Program-made: the position numbers and the translations under genes
Part shown: positions 1-48,983 of the stretch, one piece after another
Numbering within the stretch: position 1 is the first letter of the stretch
Layout of the letters: every line of letters begins with the position of its first letter
DNA from: an uncultured Candidatus Saccharibacteria bacterium
GTDB taxonomy: Bacteria; Patescibacteriota; CAZHWT01
NCBI GenBank assembly: GCA_964554805.1
Contig: CAZKPX010000004.1
Location: 72,439 to 136,438 of the forward strand
DNA: 64,000 nucleotides
Direction of reading: 5' to 3'
Notes under the pieces: model-generated
What the model was told of the DNA's origin: nothing
What the model saw: the letters and a program-made list of their open reading frames with translations, nothing else
Databases searched by the model: none

Positions 1-328
1 CAACACAACCCAAAACAATACAGACAACACCGGTAATGGCTAGTGAGATATGAAATTTGCGATTGGTCCAAATTGACCAATACCAGAATTTATACCAGAC
101 AGCTTGGTTGGTGCGCTTAGAGCGGTTGATTAAAGCGGAGGGAGATTTGGCTTTGGGCGTTTTAGGCCTAGCCGAGGATTCAATAGTAATAGTTTTCATA
201 GACATAATTCGACAGGTTTTAGTATACCAAACGAGCAAGCTTATTTATATGGTTAGTGGTCTCGTGTCTCAATATCCGCCAGCCAAGCTGGCTGCATCGG
301 GGTAATGTAGTTCGCTTGATGAGGGGTT

Positions 329-884
329 GGAAAGGCAAAAATCAAAAGGCAAAGGGCAAAAATTAAAGTTAAAAATCAAAGCCCAAAGTTACAAGTAGTG
401 CCAAGTTAGCCAGTATTCGTCATTGTGAGGATCCGCCAGCTGGCGGAGACGTGGCAATCTAGGAGGATTGATGATTGCCTGTTGGCTTAAGAGTGTCATT
501 ATTGTTTGTCCTGGATTGCCGCTCCGCCGGTTGGCGGATCGCAATGACGTTGCAGGGGGGGGCGTCATTGCTTCTGTTCTGGATTGCCGCTCCGCTTGTT
601 GGGGGATGGCAATCTAGCTGTGACTGATATATTTTTCTCAAGTTACATTCGGCCAAAAGCCATTGTTTTTGTATGTCATTTTTTCACCTCAAATAAACAT
701 TTTTTACTAACCTTTGTGTCTATGGGTAGTATTGAATTTGCTTAGGGGCTCTCCCCGTCAAGCTAGGAGACCAGTATTTGAGGTGAAAGAAATGAATACA
801 AGGGTTTTTATTTAAATGCAGAAGACAGTTGCAGCTACTTTGTATTTTTAACTTTAATCTTTGCCTTTTGACTTTTGCCTTTCC
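329..884 (+). repeat. MITE-like composite repeat, copy a (long form). It has terminal inverted arms, internal palindromic GGATTGCCGCTCCGCC..GGCGG and CGTCATTG..CAATGACG modules, and a hairpin core at about 651-810.
   Basis: The left arm aaaggcaaaaatcaaaaggcaaagggcaaaaattaaagttaaaaatcaaag is inverted at the right end as ctttgtatttttaactttaatctttgccttttgacttttgcctttcc. The core ccaaaagccattgtttttgtatgtcattttttcac..ctaggagaccagtatttgaggtgaaagaaatgaataca is shared with the copies at 29.1, 32.5 and 39.9 kb. No ORF is present. Confidence 0.6.
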
Positions 885-964
885 AATACCCCATCAAGTT
901 GACTGGATTGCCGCTCTGCCAGCTGGCGGGTTAGGCTATCTGCTCTTTTTACCTCCCGCCTAGC

Positions 965-19001: not shown

Positions 19002-20600
19002 CTATGGCGCGAGATAAAAATCGAACAAATGATCCTTGTCGGGCCAGAGGTAGGTTTGGTCTTCTAGGTTGGGGAGGTCGTAGTTGAAGTATTGGCGGAA
19101 GACGGTGCGGAAGGAGTTGACGGGGGTGATGGTGGGGTAGAGTTGGCTGTAGTTCTGGTCGGGGAAGTAGTAGGCGTTGAGGATTTGAGTGCGTTCTTGG
19201 ATAGCAGTGTCGGAGGCACCATCAAATTTCCAGTGGTGGCCGGTGGGGCTGATCATGGCTTCGGGGCCCTCATCGCTCTGGAGAATGATAATGGGTGGTT
19301 GGGTTGAGTTGGCTAGAATAGTGTCGATGGCCTGCATGGCCCTACTGTTGGCGCATTTGACCTGTTCGATGTAATTGGCCGGGCTGATTTCCCAGCGCTG
19401 CAGAGGTTGCTGGAGTAGATTGCAATCAGCATCATAGACGTAGGGGTCATGAGGCATAAGCAGGTGGGTCATGACAAATTTTTGCCCTGTTTGCTTGGTT
19501 GCTTGCAGGAGTTGCTGCTGGCCGAAGTCTGCCCAGCGATAATGCTGATCAAAGCCTAGCCCGAGTGGGTAATTAGTGGTTAATCCAGCTAATTCTGGAT
19601 AGTAGGATGTCTCGAGGAGTTGCCTGGTGAAGCTACTGGTGGTTATAAAATCTGACCAGTTGGCCATGATGTTGGTGTCGGCTACCTCGATGTTGCTGGC
19701 TAGCTCGTAATAATTGCCAACGTGGAAATAGGTGTAGCCAAGCGACTTGAAGATTTGGCCGGCCTTGTGATTTCTCATTAAGACTGAAGCGGTATCGGTG
19801 TCAGAGACACCGTCGGCCTGAGTATCGACCAGGCTTTGCAGATAATCTAGATTGAGGGTTGAGGAAAGTGAAAACAGGGTTTTGGGGTAGTTGGTGTTGG
19901 AATCAGTGGCTAGATAGAACTGCTTTTGAGCCAGATAATCGATTAGCTGTTGGTTATCATAGTCATAGTATTCAGCTTGAGTTTTGGGTGAGGCGTAACG
20001 ATCGAGGACGATGTAATAGATATCGGGTTGACTTGCAGCGACAAGCGATGAGTGATGAGCGACAGGGAGGACTTGGGTGGCCTGAAGTGCTTGCTGTCTG
20101 GCCTCGGAGCTGGCAAATAAGCCTGGAACAATTTGGATGAGAGGGCCGACAAGAAGAATAATGCCGACGAGGCTAATTAGTTTAATAAAACGTATCGATG
20201 GCCAGGTAGTCTGCCGACCGGCAGATTTCATAGCCATGACGACCAGCACTATTGCCACAAGTATATACAATAGCCAGACAGCGACTTTGGCTTGATCGGC
20301 TTCCAGCCACTGACCAAAAATCACAGTCAGGCTATTGAAGCTAAAGAATGTGACAACCAGCGTCAGGCTGATTAGAGCGGCAAAGGTTGGTTTTTTGGTT
20401 AAGAATGCCAAACCTATTTGGATAACTACGACGACAAAGGTTGTAAAAAGGAGCGGTTCAATCACCTGGTTTATAGTGGTGCCGTGAATATTGGTGGCGA
20501 ACAAGCTGAGAATTGCGAACCAGCTGAAGAGAATGGCTGGGGCTAGGCTTAGGAGCGACGAGCGACGAGCGACGAGCGACGAGGTGAATCGGTTGAGCAT
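19002..20600 (-). CDS. Membrane-anchored alkaline-phosphatase-superfamily protein, paralog 2. It carries a heptamer SSR in codons 7-17.
   Basis: Same architecture as 17308-18930 (IYYIVLDRYA, LLMPHDPY, AYYFPDQNY, NSFRTVFRQYFN). The N-terminal SSLVARRSSLL is encoded by (GAGCGAC)x4. Confidence 0.4.
   Translation of the reverse strand: MLNRFTSSLVARRSSLLSLAPAILFSWFAILSLFATNIHGTTINQVIEPLLFTTFVVVVIQIGLAFLTKKPTFAALISLTLVVTFFSFNSLTVIFGQWLEADQAKVAVWLLYILVAIVLVVMAMKSAGRQTTWPSIRFIKLISLVGIILLVGPLIQIVPGLFASSEARQQALQATQVLPVAHHSSLVAASQPDIYYIVLDRYASPKTQAEYYDYDNQQLIDYLAQKQFYLATDSNTNYPKTLFSLSSTLNLDYLQSLVDTQADGVSDTDTASVLMRNHKAGQIFKSLGYTYFHVGNYYELASNIEVADTNIMANWSDFITTSSFTRQLLETSYYPELAGLTTNYPLGLGFDQHYRWADFGQQQLLQATKQTGQKFVMTHLLMPHDPYVYDADCNLLQQPLQRWEISPANYIEQVKCANSRAMQAIDTILANSTQPPIIILQSDEGPEAMISPTGHHWKFDGASDTAIQERTQILNAYYFPDQNYSQLYPTITPVNSFRTVFRQYFNYDLPNLEDQTYLWPDKDHLFDFYLAP
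20553..20583 (+). repeat. Heptamer microsatellite (GAGCGAC)x4 inside the N-terminal coding region of the 19002-20600 gene.
   Basis: gagcgacgagcgacgagcgacgagcgacgag. A 7-nt unit in an ORF means a gain or loss of one unit shifts the frame. Confidence 0.8.
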
Positions 20601-20603
20601 AAC

Positions 20604-22046
20604 TTACTTCTTTTCTAGTAGGTATAGGATCCGGTGGCTATCTTTGATTGGGGTGGCTTTGGTAATTTTGAAATATTGACCAAAAGCAGCCTCAAATCCC
20701 TCCTTGGTGTAGTCAGTGAAAATATCCTGCCGGGTAGCTAACAGAATCTGGACTTGGGAATCCTGTTTGGGGATGAATTCAACGATGGCTCCCTTATGCG
20801 ACAACTGGTGGAACAACAGGGCAATCTTGGCTAAGGGGATGTTGAGAGGGATAGCCAGGTGATGGACGACCGCCAGTCCCATAATGGCATCGGCTTGAAT
20901 ACGATCCAGAATAGCCCGACGCTCGGTATTGTGCCAGCCAATGCCTGGGCTGGGGTTGGCAATGTCTGACACCAAAGGCAGGATACTGCCTTTGGTGGAG
21001 CGACTAGCGACGGGCGACGAGCGACGAGCTTCTGATTTGAGGTATTGGTAGAGGCTGTCGACTGCTAAGGGGTCGATGTCGAGGGCGATGGTTTGGATGC
21101 CTTGATCTGCCGCAACCATGCTAAATAAGCCGGTATTGGCACCGATGTCTGTGGCTGATTTTGCTTTGAGTTGCTTGAGATAGTCCCCCACTAATTGCTG
21201 CTTGTGTTGGAGGGCTTGGTCGACATAGTTGTTGTTATTGATGTAATAGCTGGCCCACTCGGTGTTTTGGCCTTTGGCTTTGAGCTTTTTGACTGCTGAC
21301 TCTAGACTATCCAACATGCCCAGCAATGATTGCAGACTGACTTGACCAACAGATGTAGATTGAGAAGCGGCTTGGAGATTTTTTGAGGCATCGGAAGCAT
21401 GACTGACTTGGTTCTTACCGTGAAGATGGATATGGATTAGCAGGCCGGGTCGGAGACGAGAAGCTGGGGGCAGGAGACGGGAGGCTAGGTCTAGAGGGAT
21501 GCCGTCAATATTCGTCTGGAGTAATTGCTGCAGGCGGAGATCGGTATGGGCCATTAAGGCTAGCGGGGCCAGGAAATGTTGGCAGAATTGTTTGTAGGCA
21601 ACCCAGGGCTTTGGCTGGTAGGCTTCAAAAGACAAGGTGTCAATTAAAACTGGCTGATTGGCCACAAATTGGATATTGTAAGCCGTTGCATCTTTGAGAC
21701 TCATGCCATGTTTGAGGGCTGTTTTTTGAAGATGAAGGGTTAGGAGCGCCGCATCTTGCAGCTGGCTAAATGACCATTCATACGGATAGGATATGACCGG
21801 AATATGCTCAGGTTTAATAATTTTATAGGCCTGCTGAAAGGGGTGGTTTGTTAACTTGACCTCTTGATGAGCTACCATAGCTTGCTGGTCAACAAGAGTC
21901 TGATATAGGCCGGAGCTGTGTAGCAGGTCATAGTTTTTCTGGTATGAATCAGAAACTGCCCGATAGATGGTGTCGTCTTGGTAAAAGACAGTGCCGCTGG
22001 GATCGCGGAAGGATGAAGATTCAAGCTTGGTAGTGTCTTTAGGCAT
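20604..22046 (-). CDS. Two-domain protein with a C-terminal class I SAM-dependent methyltransferase. It carries a GCGACGR heptamer tract in the coding sequence.
   Basis: DIGANTGLFSMVAADQG..ALDIDPLAVD is a SAM-binding fold. EARRSSPVASRSTKG is encoded by the gcgactagcgacgggcgacgagcgacgag tract at 21000-21028. Confidence 0.5.
   Translation of the reverse strand: MPKDTTKLESSSFRDPSGTVFYQDDTIYRAVSDSYQKNYDLLHSSGLYQTLVDQQAMVAHQEVKLTNHPFQQAYKIIKPEHIPVISYPYEWSFSQLQDAALLTLHLQKTALKHGMSLKDATAYNIQFVANQPVLIDTLSFEAYQPKPWVAYKQFCQHFLAPLALMAHTDLRLQQLLQTNIDGIPLDLASRLLPPASRLRPGLLIHIHLHGKNQVSHASDASKNLQAASQSTSVGQVSLQSLLGMLDSLESAVKKLKAKGQNTEWASYYINNNNYVDQALQHKQQLVGDYLKQLKAKSATDIGANTGLFSMVAADQGIQTIALDIDPLAVDSLYQYLKSEARRSSPVASRSTKGSILPLVSDIANPSPGIGWHNTERRAILDRIQADAIMGLAVVHHLAIPLNIPLAKIALLFHQLSHKGAIVEFIPKQDSQVQILLATRQDIFTDYTKEGFEAAFGQYFKITKATPIKDSHRILYLLEKK
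21000..21028 (+). repeat. Heptamer microsatellite (GCGACKR)x4 inside the methyltransferase-domain gene.
   Basis: gcgactagcgacgggcgacgagcgacgag. Confidence 0.7.
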
Positions 22047-25830: not shown

Positions 25831-25868
25831 ACACTATTTAGGTTACAGGGGTAATAGGCAAGCGTCAA

Positions 25869-25887
25869 GCGTCAAGCATAGGAGGAA
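25869..25887 (+). repeat. GCGTCAA heptamer repeat in the leader of the rfbB operon.
   Basis: ggcaagcgtcaagcgtcaagc. Confidence 0.6.
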
Positions 25888-25963: not shown

Positions 25964-25984
25964 GGCGACGGGCGACGGGCGACA
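25964..25984 (+). repeat. GGCGACG heptamer x3 in the leader of the rfbB operon.
   Basis: ggcgacgggcgacgggcgaca. Confidence 0.7.
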
Positions 25985-26050
25985 TGTGGAGACCAGTTCG
26001 ATGGGAAAGGAATGAATGAAGGAGACTGAGGCACCTTTGGTGGCGGATAT

Positions 26051-26156
26051 CGAGACAGGAGACGCGGGACAGGAGGATTGTCAGTAATCTTTGATTTTTG
26101 ATTTTAATTTTTGCCTTTTGCCCTTTGCCTTTTTCCTTTTGCCCTTTGCCCTTTGC
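26051..26156 (+). repeat. Solo right arm of the MITE-like element (copy b): GGAGACAGGA tract plus TIR.
   Basis: cgagacaggagacgcgggacaggaggattgtcagtaatctttgatttttgattttaatttttgccttttgccctttgcc.. The last about 50 nt are read as the C-terminus of the Mur-ligase ORF (..[17 protein letters not shown]). Confidence 0.6.
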
Positions 26157-27411
26157 CGAGCGCTTTCTCTACAGCTGTTTGGTCTGACCAGGGGATTTCT
26201 TGGCCTTGGATGGCTAGGCTTTGTTCGTGGCCTTTGCCGGTAATTAATACTACGTCTCCCTTTTGAGCCATGGCGATGGCTTGGTTTATGGCTTGTTGTC
26301 GATCGTCGAGGCGCTGCCACTGTTTGCCCTGTACTCTACCCTGTTGAGTAAGACCATCGATGATCATTGATTGTATTGTATCCAAAGACTCAAAGCGGGG
26401 GTCCTCCATGGTGAGGATGGAGAAATCTGCCCATTGGCCGGACAGCTGACCGAAGGTTGAGCGCTTGGATTGATCACGTTGAGCTGCTGAGCCAAAAACA
26501 TGAATTAATGCGCCGTTGCCTGTGACTAATTTTTTAGCTTGAGGCAGTACTTGAGCTAAGGATTGTGGCGTATGGGCGAAGTCAATAATGATGGTGTATG
26601 GTGTAGTTTGGACTACCTGCCAGCGACCATCGACCGCTTTGACCGCTGCCAAGCCTTGTCTAATGGCTGACTCAGAAACTTCGAGGCATACCGCGATAGC
26701 GGTTGCTGCTAAGGCATTTGAAACATTGTATTCACCCGGTAAGAAGACTTGCAAGTCTTGGATCGACTTGGTTTTGCTTAATTTGGGAGAAATTTTACTA
26801 TTGAAAGTCGTTGATTGATCGGTTTGCTGCGTAATCGTGCCGAGTAAATCGGCTGGCTGAGACTGGCTAATAGTCAGGAGCGAGGGGTGGGTGGATATAA
26901 GCTGGGTCAATGGTGGACTGTCTATATTTATGATTGTGTGCTGCGACTGCTTGATAATCATGGCTTTGGCTTGAAGGTATTTATCCATAGTGCGGTGATA
27001 ATCGAGATGTTCCGGGCTCAGGTTGGTAATTAGTCCAACCCTAAAATTAAGACCAAAGGTTCGATATTGGTCCAGGCCATGTGAGGTAGTCTCAATAACG
27101 ACATGGCTGACACCTGCCTGTTTCATCTGATGCAACATAGCATATATTTCGGTTGGACCGGGTGTTGAGGTATGAAGGCCAGTTTGGAGATGTTGGCCGT
27201 TGATCTGCGCACCTAGGGTTGAGATGTGGCCGACTGTATGACCAGCCTGCTCCAATATGCTGGAGACAAGATGGGTGGTGGTGGTTTTGCCATCGGTGCC
27301 GGTAATACCAATCAAAATTAAATGTTTGTGTGGCTGGCGGAAGCGAATCATTGCTGCTGCGCTTAAGAGTATATTGATCAGTCGACGGGCAAGAATTCTG
27401 AGATGAATCAT
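26104..27411 (-). CDS. Mur-ligase-family protein (MurT/MurE-like central and C-terminal domains).
   Basis: P-loop GITGTDGKTTT and a Mur ligase middle-domain block, TSHGLDQYRTFGLNFRVGLITNLSPEHLDYHRTMDKYLQAKAMI. The N-terminus MIHLRILARRL resembles the MurT N-terminus. There is no Zn-ribbon. The C-terminal about 16 aa derive from the repeat. Confidence 0.55.
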   Translation of the reverse strand: MIHLRILARRLINILLSAAAMIRFRQPHKHLILIGITGTDGKTTTTHLVSSILEQAGHTVGHISTLGAQINGQHLQTGLHTSTPGPTEIYAMLHQMKQAGVSHVVIETTSHGLDQYRTFGLNFRVGLITNLSPEHLDYHRTMDKYLQAKAMIIKQSQHTIINIDSPPLTQLISTHPSLLTISQSQPADLLGTITQQTDQSTTFNSKISPKLSKTKSIQDLQVFLPGEYNVSNALAATAIAVCLEVSESAIRQGLAAVKAVDGRWQVVQTTPYTIIIDFAHTPQSLAQVLPQAKKLVTGNGALIHVFGSAAQRDQSKRSTFGQLSGQWADFSILTMEDPRFESLDTIQSMIIDGLTQQGRVQGKQWQRLDDRQQAINQAIAMAQKGDVVLITGKGHEQSLAIQGQEIPWSDQTAVEKALGKGQRAKGKRQRAKGKN

Positions 27412-27986: not shown

Positions 27987-28959
27987 TTGGATGTGCTGCA
28001 TGCCATTGCCAAGCTGATTTAATAATATCTTCGAGTTGACTATGCTGGGGTTGCCAGTTGAGTTTTTGCTGCAGTTTTTCTGATGAGGCAATCAGCTGAT
28101 CGGGGTCGCCCGGGCGGCGCTGACCATACTCAACTGTAAAATCTTTGGCGGTGACTTGTTTGACCATATCCACTACCTGTTGATTGGAGTATCCTTGGCC
28201 GGTTCCGACATTGAATTGATCAGAAACTCCGCCGGCGACTAAATATTCCATGGCTTTGAGATGAGCGCTCGCTAGATCGGCGATGTGAATATAATCTCTG
28301 ACACAAGTACCATCGGGAGTATTGTAGTCTTGACCAAAGATAGTAATATGTGGACGTTGGCCTGTGGCTGCCTGAATAACTAATGGAATAAGGTGTGATT
28401 CGGGCTGATGAGCTTCGCCGCGACTACCGTCTAGCGCTGCACCGGAGGCGTTGAAATAACGGAGGCAGACACTGGTCAGGCCGTGAGCTTGATCCATCCA
28501 TTTCAGCATGTCTTCCATCATTAATTTGCTTGCACCATAGGGATTGGTGGGGACTTTGGGATCGTCTTCTTGGATTGGCACTTGGACTGGATTGCCGTAG
28601 ACTGCAGCGGTCGAGGAGAAGACGACATGTTTGATGCCATGATCATGGATGGCCTTGAACAGAACCAGCGAGCCCGCTACATTGTTTGAAAAATACTTGG
28701 CTGGCTGCTCGACAGATTCGCCGACTTGAATGTAGGCTGCAAAATGGATTAAACCATCAAATGCTTGGTCTGTTAAAAGACTGTCTAATAATTGTCGATC
28801 ATCGATTCGACCTGTGACTAATGTAACCGAGTCAGGCAAGGCCTGAGCATGGCCGAATTCTAACGAGTCTAAAACGGTCACTTGATGACCGGATTCCACT
28901 AAGTGGTTGACTGTTTCTGAGCCAATATAACCTGCTCCACCGGTGACGAGAATATTCAT
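27967..28959 (-). CDS. galE: UDP-glucose 4-epimerase.
   Basis: MNILVTGGAGYIGSETVNHL, a YxxxK motif (YGASKLMMEDMLKW), 330 aa, and a GalE-like C-terminus. Confidence 0.8.
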   Translation of the reverse strand: MNILVTGGAGYIGSETVNHLVESGHQVTVLDSLEFGHAQALPDSVTLVTGRIDDRQLLDSLLTDQAFDGLIHFAAYIQVGESVEQPAKYFSNNVAGSLVLFKAIHDHGIKHVVFSSTAAVYGNPVQVPIQEDDPKVPTNPYGASKLMMEDMLKWMDQAHGLTSVCLRYFNASGAALDGSRGEAHQPESHLIPLVIQAATGQRPHITIFGQDYNTPDGTCVRDYIHIADLASAHLKAMEYLVAGGVSDQFNVGTGQGYSNQQVVDMVKQVTAKDFTVEYGQRRPGDPDQLIASSEKLQQKLNWQPQHSQLEDIIKSAWQWHAAHPNGYNHD

Positions 28960-28994
28960 GTCTTTAGCTTAAATGTCTGGAGACGTAGCGTCAA

Positions 28995-29395
28995 GGGGAA
29001 GGGGGAGGCAAAAGGCAAAGGTCAAAAGGCAGAAATTAAAGTTAAAAATCAAAGGTTGCTTACGACTATGACATTGCGATCTGACGGCAAACGAAGTCAT
29101 AGCGGCAATCTTGTTTGATTATATTGCTGGCCCGGCAAAATGCATTCGGCCAAAAGCCACGTTTTTGTATGTCATTTTTTCACATCAAATAAACATGCCC
29201 TAGTATGGATAGATAATTTGGGTGAGGATATACTTATTTACTAGCTCTCCTTGGTCAGGCTAGGAGACCAGTATTTAATGTGAAAGAAATGAATACAGGG
29301 GGTTTATTAAATGCAGAAGGCAGAAGGCAGTCGCAGTTACTTTGTATTTTTGACTTTAATTTCTGCCTTTTGATTTTTGCCTTTTAACTTTAATT
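28995..29395 (+). repeat. MITE-like composite element, full copy c (TIR arms plus hairpin core at about 29148-29310).
   Basis: The left arm ggcaaaaggcaaaggtcaaaaggcagaaattaaagttaaaaatcaaag is inverted at the right as ctttgtatttttgactttaatttctgccttttgatttttgcc. The core ccaaaagccacgtttttgtatgtcattttttcacatcaaataaaca..ctaggagaccagtatttaatgtgaaagaaatgaataca is present. Confidence 0.65.
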
Positions 29396-30073
29396 GACTG
29401 GCCTAGCTGAAGGGGTAGCTGATTGGGTTGACTGGGGGGTGGGGGTAGGTCGGATTTTGTGTTCGCCAAGAATAACTCTATCGGCTTGTTTCTGAAACGC
29501 TACAACTTGGGTTGGTTGAACTTGCAAGAGCGAGGTGACTCGACTGCGGATATCGGCATCTGTAACCTTTTGTTCAACAAAGTCTTCTAAGGCTTTTTGG
29601 ATGCCTATTTGCTGTTCAAGCTTATCCAGATAGGGCTGCATGTCAACATTATCAAGCTGAAGAGTGTTGAGATAATCAGACAACTCCTGCTGTTGTTGTT
29701 GATATTTAGTTAGGGCATCGACAGCCGCCTGAGGATTGTTGTCTTGAATAGCCTGATAGCCTTCGGCTAGTCGCTGCTGACTAAAATCAAGCAGCAGCTG
29801 AGTGCGACTCTCTGGAGTTGAGGCTAATATATATTGAATCTGCTCAATGATGCTTTTGAACCAGTAGGTAAAGCTGCCGGGGATAGCATAAACTGAAGGG
29901 AGTTGAATGAGAGCAGAAGCAGATGACTGAGAGGGGTCGACGGCCACTTCGATACCCAGCGACTGAAGAGTCTCCTCGGCAGTAACAGCAAGGATTGTTG
30001 CTGGCTTGAGCGCCAAGCAGGCAATAAGGCCAAAGACAATGAGACAGGATTTTACCATATGTCTAGGGTACAC
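29390..30073 (-). CDS. Secreted or lipoprotein-like hypothetical protein (signal peptide, Q-rich helical region).
   Basis: An N-terminal hydrophobic signal (SCLIVFGLIACLALKPATILA). No recognisable catalytic motif. Confidence 0.35.
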   Translation of the reverse strand: MYPRHMVKSCLIVFGLIACLALKPATILAVTAEETLQSLGIEVAVDPSQSSASALIQLPSVYAIPGSFTYWFKSIIEQIQYILASTPESRTQLLLDFSQQRLAEGYQAIQDNNPQAAVDALTKYQQQQQELSDYLNTLQLDNVDMQPYLDKLEQQIGIQKALEDFVEQKVTDADIRSRVTSLLQVQPTQVVAFQKQADRVILGEHKIRPTPTPQSTQSATPSARPVN

Positions 30074-30197
30074 CTGTTGCCTGCTTCTAGTCCAGCCTTG
30101 CTACCTGGACCATGTATGACGAACCTCGGAGGTTCTCTGGGATGAGAACCTCCGAGGTTGGAATAGGTCGATTGTTTTTTTGGGCTGGTTTTTTGGC

Positions 30198-31235
30198 TTA
30201 CTTGATTGACTCTGTCTTTAGAGAGTCAGTCATTGATTGGGCTGCTTTGGCCAGGTTGTCGCCTGCGCGAAGGCGGCCGAAGGACAATTTGAAATATGAA
30301 ATTGCACCAATAATAGTTACTGGCACAACCTGAGTGATGTGGAGTATGACGGCATAAGCGGCTGCTTGATTAGTGTCAACGCCAAGCAGGCCCAAACAGA
30401 TGACAACAATGCCATGGAACGTGCCAATACCAGCTGGGCCCGAGGGGATGCTGGTGCCTAGATTGGACAAAGAAACCAGGAATAACCATTCCATCGGTGA
30501 AAGTACCAAGCCAAAAGCTTGGCCAACTAGGAAATAGACTAGACTCTCGCATAGCCATATGAAGATACTATTAGTGATCGTAATGGCTAATAAGCGCTTT
30601 GAGCGCAGTGGCAACAACCCCTCACGAAACCGTTGCAATTGAGTTATGCCCCATGCAATAGCCTTATCGGCCCAAGCAGGTGCCAGATTTTCCAGAAATC
30701 GTCGGACCTGAGATAAATGCTCATCTTTGCCGATAACAAGCCAAATGAGCGCTGCCATAACCAGGCCGAAAACAACAAATCCGATGGTTAGAATTTGGAT
30801 TACCCAACTAGGAAAAGGCAGGAACGAGATTGTGAGCAGTAGTATGCTGAGCAGGACTAACCCATCTATAACTCTGCCCAAGAGAGTCACCGCTAGCGAC
30901 GAGCTAACTGGAATACCTTCGTTTTGTCGAACCACATATGATAACAAAACCTCACCTGCTCGGGCAGGCAAGACATTGTTGGCCATGTAGTTAATAGTAA
31001 TATATTGATAACTTCGGCCCAGTGAGAAGGCTTTTAATGAGGCTAAAATCTTCCGGAATCTTTGGGCCCTAAATACGAAACTGAACAGAGAAACGGCTAT
31101 GGCTGGAACAAGCCACCAATAGGCAGCCTCGGATAGTGCTTTGAGGACATTTTCCAGATGAAGCGAGCTGGCCAATAAAATTATAAAGGCTACGCTTAGC
31201 GCCATGCCGAGGATAGGAGTAATTTTCGATTTCAT
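30198..31235 (-). CDS. Lysylphosphatidylglycerol-synthase-TM-region family protein (flippase-like domain protein).
   Basis: 345 aa with about 8 TM helices. The basic motif FRAQRFRKIL after TM2 is typical of the LPG_synthase_TM / UPF0104 family. Confidence 0.5.
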   Translation of the reverse strand: MKSKITPILGMALSVAFIILLASSLHLENVLKALSEAAYWWLVPAIAVSLFSFVFRAQRFRKILASLKAFSLGRSYQYITINYMANNVLPARAGEVLLSYVVRQNEGIPVSSSLAVTLLGRVIDGLVLLSILLLTISFLPFPSWVIQILTIGFVVFGLVMAALIWLVIGKDEHLSQVRRFLENLAPAWADKAIAWGITQLQRFREGLLPLRSKRLLAITITNSIFIWLCESLVYFLVGQAFGLVLSPMEWLFLVSLSNLGTSIPSGPAGIGTFHGIVVICLGLLGVDTNQAAAYAVILHITQVVPVTIIGAISYFKLSFGRLRAGDNLAKAAQSMTDSLKTESIK

Positions 31236-31332
31236 ACTTGATAAGGATACAGGAAATTATTGAACGATTCTAGATTCCAGAATCCAGACTATAGCTAAGA
31301 CTCATATGTATATGCTATCAATCGTTATAGGC

Positions 31333-31635
31333 TTACAGAACCTTGCCTTGACTGTCTGCAGGGAGTTGCTGGCGCAGTATTTGAGCTGGCCCCGAAGCTT
31401 GGGGGTGAGTAATAAAATCTTCAACTGCTAATGGTGTAGTGGATGGAATAAGCGGGTTGAGTTGACGCTGTTGCTGTTCTTCTATCTGGCGCAAATCATT
31501 ATGACGAAAATCCCAAGTCTCTTGCAGGCTCAAGACTGTAGGCTGATTTATAAATAAATAAATTATGATGGCGTCAAAGACAAGCAGGCCGAAGGTAATG
31601 GCCCACATGCGCAGCGGCGTAAAGAAAGTACCCAT
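31333..31635 (-). CDS. Small membrane protein.
   Basis: 100 aa with an N-terminal TM helix. No homology recognised. Confidence 0.3.
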   Translation of the reverse strand: MGTFFTPLRMWAITFGLLVFDAIIIYLFINQPTVLSLQETWDFRHNDLRQIEEQQQRQLNPLIPSTTPLAVEDFITHPQASGPAQILRQQLPADSQGKVL

Positions 31636-31690
31636 ATAGTCTATTATATCATACTATGGGCTACTTGTCAAGATTGTGGGATGCGGATGG

Positions 31691-31938
31691 GAAGGCAAAG
31701 GGCAAAGGGCAAAAGGTAAAAATTAAAGTAGAAAATCAAAAATTACATATGCGCCACTGTGAGCCCTGATTGGATCGGGATAAACTCCGTGCGGCAATCG
31801 GGGAGATATCCTAGATTGCCACGTCATTTCATTCCTCGCAATGACGAATACTGGCTAACTTAGCACTACAGCACTACTTGTAACTTTGGGTTTTAACTTT
31901 TAACTGTAATTTTGCCTTTTGCCTTTTGATTTTTGCCT
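31691..31938 (+). repeat. MITE-like element, short symmetric copy d (TIR arms plus a central palindromic module, no hairpin core).
   Basis: ggcaaagggcaaagggcaaaaggtaaaaattaaagtagaaaatcaaa ... tcctcgcaatgacgaatactggctaacttagcactacagcactacttgtaactttggg (the reverse complement of the 383-433 module of copy a) ... ttttgccttttgccttttgatttttgcc. Confidence 0.6.
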
Positions 31939-31942
31939 TGGT

Positions 31943-32278
31943 CTACCCGATGTTGGGTGGGGAGCTGTAGATTGGTTCTACGGATTGACCGATGGGCAGA
32001 CTGTTGACTGGTAGTTGTAAAGCCAGGCCAAGTGCATTGGCTACGGCAACGCCAACTCTTGTGCCAGTGAATGAACCAGGGCCAGGATTGACTTCGATGG
32101 CTTGCAGATTATCCATTGATAAATCTTGGCTGCCTAGTAATTCTTCAATGGACGGCAAGAGGATTTGCGCATGATTGCGCGTTTCCATTTTTGTTAATTC
32201 GGCAACAAGTTGGCCATCGGGCTGCTGTAAGCGAAGAACGAGTTGTTGTCTATCAGTGGTGTTTATATAAAGTATCAT
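31943..32278 (-). CDS. tsaB: TsaB/YeaZ N-terminal domain only (truncated t6A protein).
   Basis: The conserved motif EVNPGPGSFTGTRVGVAVANALGLAL is present. Only about 112 aa run from the plausible Met to the stop, against about 230 aa for the canonical protein. The ORF is flanked on both sides by MITE-like copies. Confidence 0.5.
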   Translation of the reverse strand: MILYINTTDRQQLVLRLQQPDGQLVAELTKMETRNHAQILLPSIEELLGSQDLSMDNLQAIEVNPGPGSFTGTRVGVAVANALGLALQLPVNSLPIGQSVEPIYSSPPNIG

Positions 32279-32420
32279 ATGCAGATGGCTACCATTCAGC
32301 TGGCTATGACCTTTATTATACAACCAACACATGGGCAAAACTACAAGCAAGCATAGGGGAAGGGTGAGAGGCTGAAGGCAGGGGGATTGTGTATCTTTAT
32401 CTGGCATAGCTGTAAGTGTA

Positions 32421-32745
32421 GGGCGGCAATCTAGTATGGGTTTATTATTCACACACAAGAATGCAATCGACCAAAAGCCATTGTTTTTGTATGTCATTTT
32501 TTCTTGCCAAATAAACACGACTTACTAGCTAATGAATGCCGGGATGAGTTTTTACATGATCTACTAGATCTTCTTGCCTAGGCTAGGAGACCAGTATTTA
32601 GCAAGAAACAAATGAATACAGGGTTATATAAAATGCAGGAGACAAGAGACAGGAGGCAGGAGACGCGGGACGCGACGGCGGGGATTGTCAGTAATCTTTG
32701 ATTTTTGACTTTAATTTTTACCTTTTGCCTTTTGATTTTTGCCTT
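32421..32745 (+). repeat. MITE-like element copy e (hairpin core at about 32470-32640, GACAAGA/GGCAGGA heptamer tract, right TIR arm).
   Basis: ccaaaagccattgtttttgtatgtcattttttcttgccaaataaaca ... ctaggagaccagtatttagcaagaaacaaatgaataca ... gacaagagacaggaggcaggagacgcgggacgcg ... ttgtcagtaatctttgatttttgactttaatttttaccttttgccttttgatttttgcc. The right arm supplies the cmk C-terminal tail. Confidence 0.65.
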
Positions 32746-33460
32746 GTCTTTCCAAGTACTTATCAATATAGCGAGATATTTGCTCGACCGTCTGGTTGAT
32801 GGTGTTGTTTGTACTGTCGATAACAACTGCCCCTTCGGCCAGACGTAGGGCTGAATAAGCCCGTTCAGTATCGCGTCGATCTCGCTCAGCTATCTCTGAA
32901 TAGACTTGCTCAAACGAAATATCCTGACCCGCGTCGATATAATCAACATGGCGCCTCTGGGCTCTGACCTCTACTGATGAAGTCAGAAAAAACTTCATAT
33001 CAGCTTCGGGATACACCGTAGAACCAGTATCGCGCCCTTCCAAGACTGCTCCGTTTTTAGTCTGCTTTACCAATTGGCGCTGATAGTCTTTCATTAGCTG
33101 TCGGACTGGCAGCAATGTGCCGGCCAAGGAAGCTGCTTCTGCAACTTGAGAGTTGCGGATATGGTCGGTAACATCCTGATCCCCTACTTTAATATAACTT
33201 TTTGGGCCAGTGTCTTGAGGATTGGCAGTGAAGGTGATGGGGAACTTGTTTAACAGTTCAACAAGTTGGGCAACAGATTGTTCGTTTAAACGTATATTGT
33301 GCTGCAAGGCTAGCCAGGCTACAGCCCGGTAGCAGGCACCGCTGTCGATATTATCTAAACCATACCTTCGAGCTACCAGATATGAAATAGTTCCTTTGCC
33401 CGAGCCGGCTGGACCATCTATCGTAATGACTAAGCGTCGCTGAGTCATTGCGAGGGACAT
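32711..33460 (-). CDS. cmk: Cytidylate kinase.
   Basis: ITIDGPAGSGKGT P-loop and YLVARRYGLDNIDSGACYRAVAW. The start is set at M(TQRRLV). The last about 12 aa (GKNQKAKGKN) are encoded by the repeat arm. Confidence 0.8.
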   Translation of the reverse strand: MSLAMTQRRLVITIDGPAGSGKGTISYLVARRYGLDNIDSGACYRAVAWLALQHNIRLNEQSVAQLVELLNKFPITFTANPQDTGPKSYIKVGDQDVTDHIRNSQVAEAASLAGTLLPVRQLMKDYQRQLVKQTKNGAVLEGRDTGSTVYPEADMKFFLTSSVEVRAQRRHVDYIDAGQDISFEQVYSEIAERDRRDTERAYSALRLAEGAVVIDSTNNTINQTVEQISRYIDKYLERQGKNQKAKGKN

Positions 33461-35187: not shown

Positions 35188-35332
35188 CATATGCAATGAT
35201 AAGCACGAAATGATAGAGGCCCGTTCAGGCCCGAAAGCTAGATTATGTTTTTTTGAGGGGATTAAAGAGAAGTTAATAGAGTGCCCTTCTAAGAATACTG
35301 GCTTAACGGCTGCGCCGTCAAGCGCGACGGGC

Positions 35333-35430
35333 GACAAGCGACAGGCGACCAGCATTTGTTCAGTATTCAATTTGAACTGAATTTCCTCGTCGCACGTCGC
35401 TTGTCGCTTGTCACTATCGCTAAGCGATAA
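35333..35430. repeat. Inverted arrays of GCGACRR heptamers in the tsaC-pyrG intergenic leader, a large palindrome.
   Basis: gcgcgacgggcgacaagcgacaggcgacc .. ttcagtattcaatttgaactgaa .. gtcgcacgtcgcttgtcgcttgtc, followed by the palindrome ctatcgctaagcgatag. Confidence 0.7.
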
Positions 35431-36052
35431 CGCGTTCAATATCAAACATGGGCACTGCGCCGGCCCGGAGGATGCGAGGGCGATCTCCTTGAGTAAGATC
35501 AATAACTGTTGAGCCGACTTCTCCACCAGCTTCACCTGCCACTACTCCACCAGTATGACTAATAAAGGCGCCATCGATAGCCTCAAACGTTGACGGGGCA
35601 AGTTCGCCACTAAAACAGGCCGACGACTGAATTAGCGGGCCGGTATGGCGAATCAGTTCCATGGCAATAGGATGATTGGGAATCCGGACACTAATAGTCG
35701 GCTCAGGCCATAAACAATGGAGTGGCTTGTTGGGCCAAGGCAGGACTAGGCTGACACTGCCGGGCCAGAAAGACTTTATTAGTTTGACCATGGCTCGGTG
35801 CTGTTGAGGATGAAGTGCATCAAAATCAATGCCTAGCTCTTCTAAATCGCTGAGCGTTGCAATAAGAATACCTAAGGGCTCTTCGACTGGGCGTTGTTTG
35901 GCTTGGTAGAGTGCGCCGACAGCTTTGGCATTTTTCCAACGAGCTCCGACTCCCCAGACCGTGTCTGTGGGGAAGATGACGGCTCCACCAGCTAGAAGGC
36001 GGGCCTTGCCTTCAACGATTGATAGTAATTTTTCGCGTTTGTTGATCAACAT
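35420..36052 (-). CDS. tsaC: L-threonylcarbamoyladenylate synthase (YrdC/Sua5 family).
   Basis: LLAGGAVIFPTDTVWGVGA is the classic YrdC motif. About 210 aa from M(LINKRE). Confidence 0.7.
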   Translation of the reverse strand: MLINKREKLLSIVEGKARLLAGGAVIFPTDTVWGVGARWKNAKAVGALYQAKQRPVEEPLGILIATLSDLEELGIDFDALHPQQHRAMVKLIKSFWPGSVSLVLPWPNKPLHCLWPEPTISVRIPNHPIAMELIRHTGPLIQSSACFSGELAPSTFEAIDGAFISHTGGVVAGEAGGEVGSTVIDLTQGDRPRILRAGAVPMFDIERVIA

Positions 36053-36845
36053 AGTCGAGATAAAGATGCATTGTTTGGTCTGGTAATAGTTCAGGGGCTC
36101 GGTCGGGCCATTCAATAATGATTATACCATCTGCGCGTTCAATTACCTCGGTTATGCCGAGTTGCTCTACTTCGCGACTGTCCGATAAACGATACCAATC
36201 GTAGTGATAGAGTGTCTGACCACTTGGTAGTGGATATTGCTTTGAAATGGTGTAGGTAGGGCTAGAAATCTTTTTAGGTATACCAAACGCCTTGGCCAGA
36301 TGAGAAACTAATGTGGTTTTGCCTGCCCCAAGATCGCCATGCAGAGCCAGCACTTGTCCAGGTTGTAGAGTTTGAGCAAGTCGGGTTGTGAAATACGGCA
36401 ATTGACTCAGTGTAACAAAAACCTCACCGCCCTGCCAGATTTGCTCGTATTGAGGAGGTTTGGTAACCTGGCGCCACCATTCCAACCATCCGACAACTGC
36501 CAGTCCTAGTCCTATGCCCAGGCTATTAATGGCAACGTCAGTAACTACTCCGTGCCGGGTGGGCACCATAGACTGGTGGACTTCATCGAAGATGGCGTAG
36601 AGCAGGCTTATTAGGAACGCCCTGATGGCTACGGGTCGACTCAAGGTTAAGCGGGTTGTTTGTTGAAGCCCCAAAAATACCGTTACACACAGGACCATAT
36701 AGACCAAAACATGAGAGATCTTACGTAGGAAAAAATCTGCTGACCCATAGGTAAAAGCCAGATTGGGGATGGATGACAGAAGAAAGATTACGGATGCCCA
36801 GACCAAGGCTGGCAGCCAATACAGGAGACGGATAACGACGGACAT
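36012..36845 (-). CDS. tsaE: Fusion protein: an N-terminal VanZ-like membrane domain and a C-terminal TsaE (YjeE) P-loop ATPase.
   Basis: The VanZ signature FDEVHQSMVPTRHGVVTDVAINSLGIGLG lies in a 4-TM region. The TsaE motifs LALHGDLGAGKTT...YHYDWYRL follow. Confidence 0.6.
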   Translation of the reverse strand: MSVVIRLLYWLPALVWASVIFLLSSIPNLAFTYGSADFFLRKISHVLVYMVLCVTVFLGLQQTTRLTLSRPVAIRAFLISLLYAIFDEVHQSMVPTRHGVVTDVAINSLGIGLGLAVVGWLEWWRQVTKPPQYEQIWQGGEVFVTLSQLPYFTTRLAQTLQPGQVLALHGDLGAGKTTLVSHLAKAFGIPKKISSPTYTISKQYPLPSGQTLYHYDWYRLSDSREVEQLGITEVIERADGIIIIEWPDRAPELLPDQTMHLYLDYVDQQTRKITINR

Positions 36846-48126: not shown

Positions 48127-48453
48127 TTAACCTACCTTAATCAATTCGACTTCAAAGAGAAGGTCTGAATTGGCGGGGATTGAGCCGACGCTGCGGCTGC
48201 CATAGCCTTTGGCGGCAGGGATGGTGAGCTTGCGCTTGCCGCCTTCTTTCATGCCAGGGATGCCTTCGATCCAACCATCGATCAGTGAGCCAGGATTAAG
48301 AGCAAAGGCAATTGGTTCGCCACGATCGTAGGAGGAATCGAACTTTGTTCCATCCGTAAGCGTGCCGAGATAGTGGACCGTTATGGATGAGCCGACAGTA
48401 GCTTCTGCGCCTTGTCCGACATTTACTTCTTCAATACTTACTTGATCATTCAT
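48127..48453 (-). CDS. FKBP-type peptidyl-prolyl cis-trans isomerase (soluble).
   Basis: FKBP domain blocks VHYLGTLTDGTKFDSSYDRGEPIAF and GWIEGIPGMKEGGKRKLTIPAAKGYG. Confidence 0.8.
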   Translation of the reverse strand: MNDQVSIEEVNVGQGAEATVGSSITVHYLGTLTDGTKFDSSYDRGEPIAFALNPGSLIDGWIEGIPGMKEGGKRKLTIPAAKGYGSRSVGSIPANSDLLFEVELIKVG

Positions 48454-48515: not shown

Positions 48516-48983
48516 CTACGGAATGCTGATCAGCTCAATCTCAAATACCAAGTCGGCATTGGGAGGTATGGATCCACTACCTGAAGCGCCATAGCCTTTG
48601 GCGGCAGGGATGGTGAGCTTGCGCTTGCCGCCAACCTTCATGCCAGGAATACCTTCAACCCAACCATCAATAAGCTGACCCTTGGCCAATACGAAGGTAG
48701 CTGGCTGCCCTTTGTCATAGGAGGATTCAAACTGTGTGCCATCTGCCAAACTCCCGATGTAGTGAACGGTGATGGTGTCTCCTTCTTTGGCCTCAGTGCC
48801 TGTACCGACGACAATATCTTCAATCCCAACAGGCTCATTGGTTGTTGTTTGCTCAGTAGTTGTACTGCTGCTCTGATCGCCTTTGCTGAGATTGCTGCCT
48901 GCCTGCTGTTTGGCAACAATGACCACAACGACGCAGATAATTATTATGCCCACGACTAGGGCTACGATGGTATTTTTGTTCAT
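48516..48983 (-). CDS. FKBP-type peptidyl-prolyl isomerase with an N-terminal membrane anchor.
   Basis: An N-terminal TM helix (IVALVVGIIIICVVVVIVA), an S/T-rich linker and an FKBP domain paralogous to the downstream gene. Confidence 0.8.
   Translation of the reverse strand: MNKNTIVALVVGIIIICVVVVIVAKQQAGSNLSKGDQSSSTTTEQTTTNEPVGIEDIVVGTGTEAKEGDTITVHYIGSLADGTQFESSYDKGQPATFVLAKGQLIDGWVEGIPGMKVGGKRKLTIPAAKGYGASGSGSIPPNADLVFEIELISIP

What the first reader, a model, noticed from the sequence alone, without database searches (positions are those of the whole stretch)
28995..31938. MITE-like copies sit exactly at operon boundaries and bracket small gene blocks.
Copy c fills the gap between the end of the 29390-30073 gene and the galE operon start at 28959. 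Copy f replaces the entire divergent ftsE/prfB promoter region (39757-40313). Copy d lies between the tsaB stop and the start of the 31333-31635 gene. Copy e lies between the cmk stop and the tsaB start. Copy a lies upstream of the 1032 gene, and the solo arm b sits at the Mur-ligase stop upstream of the rfbB promoter.

Promoters and terminators of several essential operons (ftsEX, prfB, galE-nudix-mur) must therefore reside in, or be shaped by, these elements. Copies c and d bracket a three-gene block (secreted protein, LPG-synthase-TM-like protein, small membrane protein), and copies d and e bracket a truncated tsaB. These look like composite-transposon-like or recombination-prone segments.
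Basis: partly seen in the sequence, partly recalled or inferred. Interest (0 to 1): 0.7.

Follow-up and report, generated by a model that had tools for sequence, protein, structure and literature searches.

The report
Intergenic palindromic repeats in a Patescibacteria genome
Six copies of a previously unseen, transposase-less palindromic repeat sit in the tiny gaps between genes of a streamlined candidate-phyla-radiation bacterium, but they left the native promoters, gene order and the short tsaB gene intact, so they look like ordinary selfish passengers, not operon-shaping or gene-moving devices.

Summary
The repeats are real. There are six related copies in the window: a, c and f are full, e and b are 5'-truncated, and d lacks the core. 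They are built from modules: 47-81 nt inverted arms ending in variable heptamer tracts (GGCAAAR)n, a small hairpin unit ("U"), and a ~190 nt core that is itself a 27-bp-stem palindrome. No transposase, Rfam family or tRNA is present.

The host is a Patescibacteria (CPR) bacterium. Seven relatives keep the same gene array and lack this family, so the copies are lineage-specific insertions.

- The ftsE, galE, rfbB and small-membrane-protein promoters and the tsaB -10 box are conserved in element-free relatives. They lie just outside the elements.
- The block "bracketed" by c and d is ancestral and stays in place in all relatives.
- tsaB is 111 aa here and mostly 107-119 aa in relatives, so it is not truncated.

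What survives is that the elements fill the short spacers between a stop codon and the next -35 box. The arms also supply the last residues and the stop codon (…AKGKN*) of cmk and a MurE-like gene. Two relatives carry their own, unrelated heptamer/hairpin repeats in the same kinds of spacer.

Verdict: a new member of the MITE/REP-like class. Interest is modest.

The parts
313..898 (+). Copy a, the longest. It has a left arm (313-381), a module shared with d (382-431), an inverted doublet of U hairpin units (417-462 on +, 509-547 on -, and a partial third at 564-612), the core (646-827) and a right arm (838-898). A further U-like half-unit lies at 899-937, just outside.
   Evidence: the ends are approximate
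25985..26157 (+). Copy b, 5'-truncated. It has a remnant of the core's 3' inner arm (GGAGACCAGT..GAAAGGAATGAATGAAGG), (GAGACRN) heptamers and a right arm with about 7 TTTGCCY units. Positions 26104-26157 encode the last 17 residues and the stop ([17 protein letters not shown]) of the MurE-like gene.
29000..29395 (+). Copy c, full length. It has a left arm (29000-29056), a U unit (29070-29110), the core (29141-29322) and a right arm (29334-29395). The TAA stop of the DUF5667 gene (29390-29392) lies in an AATTAAAG motif of the arm.
31685..31940 (-). Copy d, without a core. It has two arms (31685-31746 and 31885-31940) around a U unit (31814-31845, minus strand) and the module shared with a. It is inverted relative to a: 332-431 matches 31939-31833 at 85%. 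The right arm ends 3 nt from the tsaB stop.
32355..32750 (+). Copy e. It has a degenerate G-rich left end, the tail of a U unit (about 32418-32432), the core (32464-32644) carrying a compensatory 5-nt block change in its inner stem, (GAGACRR) heptamers and a right arm (32680-32750). Positions 32711-32743 encode the cmk tail GKNQKAKGKN*.
39835..40241 (+). Copy f, full length. It has a left arm (39835-39898), a U remnant (39906-39925), the core (39922-40103), (AGACAAG) repeated about 4.7 times, and a right arm with about 8 TTTGCCC units (40143-40241).
28966..28994 (-). Native galE promoter, outside copy c: (CCCC)TTGACG-17-TAAGCT. The -10 box ends 6 nt before the ATG at 28959. The -35 context is conserved in element-free L004.
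31643..31671 (-). Native promoter of the 100-aa membrane-protein gene, outside copy d: TTGACA-17-TATAAT, a 12/12 match with a TG. The same box is present in L004 and L018.
39800..39832 (-). Native ftsE promoter, outside copy f: CCCCTTGACC-17-TAACTTAGAAGAGT. It is conserved in L004.
25840..25875 (-). Native rfbB-like promoter: TTGACGCTTGACG..TAACCT. It is conserved in L004 and lies about 110 nt from copy b.
32315..32320 (-). TATAAT box upstream of tsaB, between copy e and the ATG at 32278. It is invariant in the window, L004, L005 and L018.
40255..40283 (+). Promoter-like site for prfB (TTTTCA-17-TATACT with TG), 14 nt beyond the right end of f. It cannot be aligned with L004, so its native status is inferred from position only.

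Best explanation
The window comes from a Patescibacteria (CPR) genome colonised by a lineage-specific family of non-autonomous, modular, nested-palindrome repeats (MITE-like).

Anatomy. A full unit has five parts in order: a left arm, (GGCAAAR)n plus AATTAAAGTTAAAAATCAAAG; an optional U hairpin unit, CGTCATTGCGA..GGCAATCTAG; a ~190-nt core that is itself a hairpin with a 27-bp stem; an (AGACAAG)n tract; and an inverted right arm. Copies differ by internal deletions and by the number of heptamers.

History (shown). The copies were inserted after the split from the sampled relatives. In this compact genome the only sites where a 250-600 nt insertion is tolerated are the 10-70 nt spacers between a stop codon and the next promoter. 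The surviving copies are therefore flush with stop codons on one side and with -35 boxes on the other.

Consequences. The native promoters still drive the downstream genes (inferred from conservation, not from transcript mapping). Two side effects follow. First, the last residues and stop codons of cmk and the MurE-like gene are now encoded by the arm. Second, transcripts that read into an element would carry a long hairpin of -83 to -142 kcal/mol (the fold is predicted; read-through itself is inferred).

Mobility. The copies are most likely selfish or neutral passengers. Their mobilising enzyme is unknown, and hairpin-dependent mobilisation is only a guess.

They do not carry the operon promoters, do not form composite transposons, and did not truncate tsaB.
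For: - The repeat family is real and non-random.
- It has a modular nested palindrome. The arms are 47-81 nt and 73-94% complementary. The core's inner stem has 27 bp, 99% paired, with 4 adjacent compensatory pairs. Folding z-scores are -6 to -9.
- No transposase or other mobile-element domain was found in 46 ORFs. There is no Rfam family or tRNA. The six-frame translations are full of stops.
- The host is a Patescibacteria bacterium.
- BLAST found no similarity to the elements in seven syntenic relatives, apart from one 26-nt low-complexity match in L018.
- In clean relatives the orthologous spacers are only 13-70 nt.
- The promoters are conserved outside the elements.
- The tsaB and DUF5667 C-termini are intact, cmk is extended by an arm-encoded tail, and the MurE tail is identical, AKGKN*.
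- Short-read contigs of the same organism break at the elements, as expected for multi-copy repeats.
Against: - No target-site duplication could be defined.
- No autonomous partner or other mobilising gene is in the window.
- Only 64 kb of the genome could be searched, so copy number and genome-wide distribution are unknown.
- Copies differ by 10-29%, so recent mobility is not shown.
- No strain-level empty site was available. The closest relative has only 75% Cmk identity.
- Some features hint at more than passive survival. All 5 core-bearing copies have the same orientation. Both exact CCCCTTGAC boxes in the window have an element 5-6 nt from the -35 hexamer. Relatives L018 and L015 carry unrelated heptamer/hairpin repeats in the same kinds of spacer.
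Confidence: 0.7

Rival explanations
1. The elements are selected, functional boundary modules. Their long hairpins would act as bidirectional terminators or insulators, or as RNase III processing and mRNA-stabilising sites, between transcription units. Alternatively the heptamer tracts next to -35 boxes could tune promoter strength, like an UP element or through length variation.
For: - Every copy sits between a stop codon and the next promoter.
- In either direction of transcription the RNA starts purine-rich and ends U-rich, and it folds strongly.
- Compensatory changes keep the inner stem intact.
- L018 and L015 have evolved or acquired different heptamer/hairpin repeats in the same kinds of spacer, ending about 20 nt before the -35 box.
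- Heptamer numbers differ between copies.
Against: - Five relatives (L004, L005, L007, L010, L017) run the same gene array with no such elements.
- The consensus scan finds no canonical intrinsic terminator in the arms.
- Copies are variously truncated (b, d, e), which fits decay better than selection.
- The placement is fully explained by the lack of any other tolerated site.
- With 4-6 copies the covariation evidence is thin. One template-switch event in copy e could explain all four compensatory pairs.
Confidence: 0.15
2. The elements carry the promoters and terminators of the flanking essential operons. Pairs of copies make the enclosed genes (the 100-aa/LPG-synthase/DUF5667 block, and tsaB) composite-transposon-like or recombination-prone cassettes, one of which holds a truncated tsaB.
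For: - Copies do flank those genes.
- A MurE-like gene that relatives lack at this position ends in copy b.
- Single-gene inversions do occur in this array among relatives.
Against: - The promoters are conserved outside the elements.
- The bracketed genes are in the same place in seven element-free relatives.
- The inversions are found in element-free genomes, while in these segments the window keeps the orientation of the distant relatives.
- tsaB is full length for this lineage.
- No transposase domain was found.
Confidence: 0.03
3. The ~190-nt core is a gene for a structured small RNA or a cis-regulatory RNA. It was copied to several loci, and the arms are only its vehicle.
For: - The core is the best conserved module and always has the same orientation.
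- It has a 27-bp stem with compensatory changes and a conserved apical hairpin, CTCTCC..GGAGAC.
Against: - No Rfam match was found.
- No convincing promoter or terminator is conserved within the core.
- Copy d lacks the core and copy b keeps only a stub.
- No homologue was found in any relative or collection.
- The stem pairs equally well on both strands, as expected for a DNA palindrome.
Confidence: 0.05
4. The copies did not spread by transposition. They spread by recombination, gene conversion or slippage seeded at pre-existing heptamer tracts and U hairpins that are native to this clade's intergenic spacers.
For: - Heptamer tracts and U units also occur outside the elements and in relatives.
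- No target-site duplication was found.
- The elements are mosaics with variable module content.
Against: - Non-homologous flanks at six loci still require some insertion mechanism.
- The element-free relatives show no tract at the orthologous sites that could seed such events.
Confidence: 0.07

Closest known systems
Bacterial MITEs (for example Correia/NEMIS elements of Neisseria, Nezha and other cyanobacterial MITEs)
   Same: Small (256-590 nt) and without an ORF. They have terminal inverted repeats, dispersed intergenic copies and internally deleted variants, and they fold into long hairpins. They sit beside promoters and gene ends. In Correia elements, co-transcription and RNase III cleavage are known; this is from my own knowledge and was not tested here.
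   Different: No target-site duplication and no cognate IS were found. The arms are unusually long (47-81 nt) and end in variable tandem heptamer tracts. The element is a palindrome within a palindrome. Here the promoters are native, not element-borne. The host is a CPR bacterium. A full-text search found no report of MITEs in CPR bacteria.
REP/BIME elements and REPINs (Bertels & Rainey 2011, PMC3116915)
   Same: The 27-46 nt U units (GTCATTGCGA-hairpin-GGCAATC) are short imperfect palindromes outside genes. They occur singly and as inverted doublets (window 417-462 with 509-547; L018 2657-2740). They are shared by at least two lineages of this clade.
   Different: No RAYT (Y1 transposase) gene could be looked for because no whole genome was available. 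The U units here are embedded in a larger composite. Few copies were seen (4 strict in the window, 7 in L018).
Intergenic heptanucleotide tandem repeats (cyanobacterial STRR; the GGGAATC and GGGGAYT repeats of Xanthomonas and Nostoc, Rehm et al. 2015, PMC4692102)
   Same: Tandem 7-nt units, mostly intergenic, that vary in number and sequence. They lie very close to the 3' end of the upstream ORF; that paper reports an average of 28 nt.
   Different: The host phylum and unit sequences are different. Here the tracts form the outer part of inverted arms and are not free-standing. They are A/T-rich and do not form G-quadruplexes.
BOX, RUP and SPRITE elements of Streptococcus pneumoniae, and ERIC/IRU of enterobacteria
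   Same: Modular intergenic repeats whose modules vary in number and which are predicted to form stable RNA hairpins.
   Different: There is no sequence relationship and the module logic differs. This comparison rests on my own knowledge only and was not tested.
Rickettsia palindromic elements (RPE)
   Same: Palindromic repeats that end up translated as part of host proteins. Here the arm encodes the C-terminal tails of Cmk and the MurE-like protein.
   Different: RPEs insert in frame inside genes. Here only the last 10-17 codons and the stop codon are replaced.

Membership tests
MITE | Terminal inverted repeats | tested here: met
   The arms are 47-81 nt and 73-94% complementary in a, c, d and f. 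Copies e and b keep only the right arm.
MITE | Small size and no transposase ORF | tested here: met
   The copies are 173-590 nt. All six reading frames are broken by stops. The translated core has no relative among 5.8 billion proteins.
MITE | Target-site duplication flanking each copy | tested here: inconclusive
   The flanks were inspected and the ends were anchored on L004. No consistent direct repeat was seen. The exact termini are blurred by degenerate heptamers.
MITE | A cognate autonomous IS with matching ends in the same genome | not testable with these tools
   No transposase domain was found in the 46 ORFs of the window. The rest of the genome (a 137.8-kb NCBI contig and beyond) could not be retrieved.
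MITE | Many dispersed copies, and presence/absence at orthologous sites | tested here: met
   There are six loci within 40 kb. The family is absent from the orthologous spacers of seven relatives. The genome-wide copy number and strain-level polymorphism are unknown.
Composite transposon | Two IS copies that encode a transposase and flank the cargo | tested here: not met
   The flanking copies have no ORFs, and no transposase is in the window.
Composite transposon | Cargo that is absent or located elsewhere in relatives | tested here: not met
   The small-protein/LPG-synthase/DUF5667 block and tsaB lie between cmk and galE in L004, L005, L007, L010, L015, L017 and L018.
REP/REPIN (for the U units only) | Short imperfect palindromes outside genes, occurring as inverted doublets | tested here: met
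REP/REPIN (for the U units only) | An associated RAYT (Y1 transposase) gene | not testable with these tools
   No whole genome of this organism or of L018 was accessible.
Intrinsic (rho-independent) terminator | A short G+C-rich stem followed by a T-run | tested here: not met
   The consensus scan finds none in the arms. There is only one weak site, in the core of c, and it is not conserved in other copies.
Promoter-bearing insertion element (outward -35/-10) | The promoter hexamers of the neighbouring gene lie within the element | tested here: not met
   The -35 and -10 boxes of ftsE, galE, rfbB and the small gene, and the tsaB -10 box, are outside the elements and are conserved in element-free relatives. 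TSS were not mapped.
Known RNA family (Rfam 15) | A match at or above the gathering score | tested here: not met
   No match was found in the whole window. The only hits on a and f are plant and animal miRNA models far below threshold.

The most novel reading that the evidence does not exclude
One clade of Patescibacteria may repeatedly recruit heptamer-tract-plus-hairpin repeat modules into the spacer between a stop codon and the next -35 box. The sequences differ in each lineage but the architecture and placement are the same. The modules would then work as transcription-unit insulators, bidirectional terminators or RNA-processing sites, or as length-tunable elements upstream of promoters. 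That would be a compact-genome solution to separating tightly packed transcription units. The window's arms and core would be the most elaborate version.
Probability: 0.12. Interest if true: 0.6.

Novelty: new member of a known kind. Interest (0 to 1): 0.3.

Why it matters
CPR/Patescibacteria genomes are usually described as small, streamlined and poor in repeats. Here repeats make up about 3.5% of a 64-kb stretch, and a quarter of its non-coding DNA. They are absent from several close relatives but paralleled by unrelated repeats in two others.

This shows that small mobile or expandable repeats can invade such genomes unevenly. It also shows where insertions are tolerated: only between a stop codon and the next promoter. 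The elements rewrite protein C-termini and break short-read assemblies, which matters for MAG quality.

The result also removes a tempting but wrong inference, that essential operons here depend on element-borne promoters or sit on mobile cassettes.

Tried and rejected
- Exact scan of 185,579 species genomes with the core 18-mer: 2 chance hits in Acidobacteriota and Actinomycetota.
- Scan of JGI metagenome contigs with a degenerate arm pattern: 1 chance hit inside a coding region.
- Viral contigs, phage records and plasmid records: nothing related.
- Search of the 5.8-billion-protein collection with the six-frame translations of the four cores, hoping to catch spurious ORF calls on other copies: no hit at E <= 10.
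- Attempts to retrieve the source NCBI contig (137,844 bp) or sequence beyond the window. Only short Logan contigs of the same organism were found, and they end at the elements. One contig runs 1.3 kb past the right edge of the window and holds no further copy.
- Rfam at gathering and at permissive thresholds: nothing meaningful. ARAGORN: no tRNA.
- A small peptide starting at the AGGAG..ATG inside the core: rejected because the frame and the stop are not conserved between copies.
- An outward-facing -35 box (CCCCTTGAC) at the left end of c and f: rejected because the same box is present at the orthologous promoters of element-free L004.
- Element-driven inversions. DUF5667 and tsaB differ in orientation between genomes, but the derived states are in the element-free relatives L004 and L005.
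- Literature search for MITEs in CPR/Patescibacteria and for the U motif: nothing relevant.
Full report

Yes. A repeat search over the window finds inverted and direct repeats at six loci. A multiple alignment shows that they are related.
- An 18-mer from the core (GCTAGGAGACCAGTATTT) occurs exactly four times against 0.06 expected.
- A 26-mer from the arm occurs seven times with at most 3 mismatches against 0 expected.
- A sensitive self-BLAST finds no other dispersed family in the window.

The copies account for 2.25 kb, which is 3.5% of the window and about 25% of its non-coding DNA. All lie in gaps between genes, and only about 100 nt overlap the 3' ends of genes.

**2. Anatomy**

A full unit (a, c, f) has these parts, in order:
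- A left arm: degenerate G-rich heptamers, then (GGCAAAR) repeated 3-5 times, then AATTAAAGTTAAAAATCAAAG.
- An optional filler that includes a small hairpin unit, "U": CGTCATTGCGA, a variable hairpin, then GGCAATCTAG.
- A core of about 190 nt.
- An (AGACAAG)-type heptamer tract.
- An inverted right arm ending in 3-8 (TTTGCCY) units.

The core is itself a palindrome. TTTTTGTATGTCATTTTTTCACMTCAAATA pairs with TATTTGAGGTGAAAGAAATGAATACA in a 27-bp stem that is 99% paired across copies. Copy e carries a 5-nt block change on both sides that keeps four of those pairs complementary.

Whole elements fold at -83 to -142 kcal/mol, with z-scores of -6 to -9.

The other copies are partial:
- Copy e lacks the inner left arm.
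- Copy b is not a bare arm. It keeps about 40 nt of the core's 3' side plus the inner heptamers.
- Copy d has both arms but no core. Judged by the module it shares with a, it is inverted relative to a.

Shared modules are 71-90% identical between copies. This is an old or heterogeneous family, not a fresh burst.

There is no ORF of note, no transposase or integrase domain in 46 ORFs, no Rfam family and no tRNA.

**3. Host and relatives**

The best named hits for PyrG are Patescibacteria (Woykebacteria, Doudnabacteria, "Patescibacteria group") at 62-66% identity. The gene content fits that assignment: a half-length TsaB, a VanZ-TsaE fusion and DUF5667.

The source appears to be a 137.8-kb NCBI contig that could not be retrieved. 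Short-read Logan contigs of the same organism end inside the elements, as expected for multi-copy repeats.

Seven relatives were recovered through Cmk or PyrG:

| Locus | Identity to the window |
|---|---|
| L004 | Cmk 75% |
| L005 | Cmk 58% |
| L007 | Cmk 51% |
| L010 | Cmk 47% |
| L015 | PyrG 78% |
| L017 | PyrG 76% |
| L018 | PyrG 74% |

Together they show the array prfB-ftsEX-M23-tsaE-sua5-pyrG-cmk-tsaB-small protein-(HisKA)-LPG synthase-DUF5667-galE-(nudix)-rfbB; each contig covers as much of it as its length allows. BLAST detects no similarity to the window's elements in any of them, apart from one 26-nt low-complexity match in L018. No collection that could be scanned holds the family either. 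The copies are therefore insertions specific to this lineage.

**4. The promoter claim**

In element-free L004 the upstream regions of four genes align with the window right up to the element boundary and then diverge:

| Gene | Conserved promoter |
|---|---|
| ftsE | CCCCTTGACC-17-TAACTTAGAAGAGT, 83% column identity through to the ATG |
| galE | CCCCTTGAC..TAAGCT |
| rfbB | TTGACGCTTGACG..TAACCT |
| 100-aa gene | TTGACA-17-TATAAT, 12/12 |

The last of these is also present in L018. The TATAAT box upstream of tsaB is invariant in four lineages.

From the coordinates, the distances from element ends to these boxes are:
- The left ends of c and f lie 5-6 nt from a -35 hexamer.
- The left end of d lies 13 nt from a -35 hexamer.
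- Copy e lies about 35 nt from the tsaB -10 box.
- Copy b lies about 110 nt from the rfbB -35.

The prfB side of f cannot be aligned with L004. Its promoter-like site lies 14 nt outside the arm.

So f does not replace the divergent promoter region, and the promoters are native. This rests on sequence conservation. No TSS data exist.

**5. The cassette and truncation claims**

TsaB is 111 aa here and in the two closest relatives, with the same C-terminus (PPNIG* against PPTIG*). It is 107-119 aa in most of the others and 91 aa in L007. It scores above the TsaB equivalog cut-off while covering only profile positions 1-89 of 212. The short form is a trait of the lineage.

The block between c and d is in place in all seven relatives.

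Orientation differences do exist among relatives:
- prfB in the window and L004.
- tsaB in L004.
- DUF5667 in L004 and L005.
- LPG synthase in L018.

For tsaB and DUF5667 the derived states are in element-free genomes. In the bracketed segments the window keeps the orientation of the distant relatives L007, L010 and L017.

The only gene gained next to an element is a MurE-like ligase without an N-terminal domain (26104-27411). At this position it is absent from L004, L007, L010, L015 and L017.

**6. What the elements demonstrably changed**

Cmk ends …YLERQGKNQKAKGKN*, against …YLSQKSSA* in L004. The MurE-like protein ends …[17 protein letters not shown]. Both tails and their TAA stops are read from the right arm. 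The DUF5667 stop lies in an AATTAAAG motif of copy c, with the protein length unchanged. Copy d ends 3 nt after the tsaB stop.

**7. Why "exactly at the boundaries"?**

In the clean relatives these spacers are 13-70 nt and already contain a promoter. Any tolerated insertion must therefore touch both the stop codon and the -35 box. Placement by survivorship is sufficient, and I take it as the main explanation.

Three hints of something more are recorded but cannot be evaluated with six copies:
- All 5 cores have the same orientation (two-sided p = 0.06).
- Both exact CCCCTTGAC boxes in the window have an element 5-6 nt from the -35 hexamer.
- L018 and L015 carry their own repeats in the same kinds of spacer.

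The repeats in those two relatives include the following:
- In L018, a 98-nt hairpin module, a GTCATTCTGGAACGAAGC..GATAGAATC module and (CACAGTC) repeated 9 times fill the gap between tsaB and the small gene, ending about 20 nt before the -35 box.
- In L018, the same module plus (TAAAGTC)3(CACAGTC)8 precedes rfbB.
- In L015, (TAATCGC)n with a CCCCGATTAAATCGGGG hairpin precedes pyrG and tsaB.

The U unit is shared by the window and L018, and in both it occurs as an inverted doublet like a REPIN. Five other relatives have none of this.

**8. Comparison with known kinds**

Structurally these are MITE-like elements. The embedded U units are REP/REPIN-like and the tracts are STRR-like heptamers.

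Two defining MITE features could not be met: a target-site duplication (inconclusive) and a cognate IS (not testable). I therefore file them as "MITE-like non-autonomous repeats" and not as proven MITEs.

Intergenic heptamer repeats lying close to the upstream ORF are described for Xanthomonas and Nostoc (PMC4692102). REPINs are described in PMC3116915 (listed; the comparison rests on my knowledge of it, since I did not read it here). I found no report of such elements in CPR bacteria, but that library is incomplete.

**9. Verdict**

The sequence observation is sound. The functional interpretation is largely refuted. The remaining finding is a new, apparently private family of modular palindromic repeats in a streamlined CPR genome, of modest interest. 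A low-probability but more interesting possibility is that such modules serve as boundary elements across the clade.

Noticed in passing
L018:12602-12943, 17689-17795, 20757-20954, 9257-9354, 2657-2740; L015:1-109, 3101-3183: Two relatives carry their own intergenic repeat modules. These are long perfect heptamer tracts, (CACAGTC)9, (CAAAGTC)8, (CAGTAGA)9 and (TAATCGC)5-8, plus hairpin units. They occupy the same kinds of stop-to-promoter spacer as the window's copies d, e and b. They have no sequence similarity to the window's arms or core.
   Followed up: partly
window 417-462, 509-547, 29070-29110, 31814-31845; L018 7 sites: A small hairpin unit (GTCATTGCGA, variable stem-loop, GGCAATC; 27-46 nt) is shared by the window and L018. 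It occurs as inverted doublets, like REP/REPIN sequences. Whether a RAYT-type gene exists in these genomes could not be checked.
   Followed up: partly
window 26104-27411 (-): A MurE-like ligase lacks the N-terminal domain (it matches TIGR01085 positions 70-471). It overlaps the nudix gene by 4 nt. At this position it is absent from all five relatives whose contigs cover it (nudix or galE is followed directly by rfbB). Its last 17 codons come from copy b.
   Followed up: partly
L004:8256-8591, 10302-10976; L005:3852-4499; L018:16421-17422; window 40314-41396: Single genes (tsaB, DUF5667, LPG synthase, prfB) are flipped in some genomes of the clade, within an otherwise collinear array and without flanking repeats.
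   Followed up: partly
window 28959-28971 and 31635-31648: The -10 boxes of galE and of the 100-aa gene end only 6-7 nt before the ATG. The same holds in L004 and L018. This suggests leaderless mRNAs.
   Followed up: no
window 31943-32278 and 36012-36845: TsaB is half-length (111 aa, covering only the first 89 of 212 profile positions) throughout the clade. TsaE is fused to a VanZ-like domain here and in L004 and L010, but the two are separate genes in L007, L017 and L018.
   Followed up: partly
window 20553-20583, 20998-21029, 25964-25983, 35324-35353, 63690-63709: Further heptamer tracts of the (GAGCGAC)/(GGCGACG) type lie outside the elements, mostly at gene boundaries. One perfect 4.4-unit tract lies at the junction of two ORFs.
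   Followed up: no
window 41438-47506 (-): A 2022-aa ORF contains a perfect 255-nt tandem duplication (43528-44037) and a long, G+C-rich stretch of degenerate short repeats (42431-43300) that gives a local GC-skew peak.
   Followed up: no
window 9161-9766 (+): Two small ORFs (91 aa and 108 aa) lie on the opposite strand inside a glycosyltransferase cluster. From the sequence (MKNIVWDEAKN…) they look like a BrnT/BrnA-type toxin-antitoxin pair. They were not run against a family library.
   Followed up: no
window 48127-48453 and 48516-48983 (-): Two tandem FKBP-type paralogues. Segments 48199-48386 and 48588-48775 are 76% identical, with a 90%-identical core.
   Followed up: no
L001, L014 (Logan SRR16798008, SRR16797978): Short-read assemblies of the same organism break at or near the arms of copies b, c and e, giving contigs of about 3 kb. 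This is a practical sign that these repeats fragment MAGs of this lineage. Copy c's left part and b's arm are 100% identical in the second sample.
   Followed up: yes
L018:4036-4428: A gene for a 23S-rRNA-intervening-sequence-type four-helix-bundle protein is inserted, on the opposite strand, between prfB and ftsE in this relative only.
   Followed up: no
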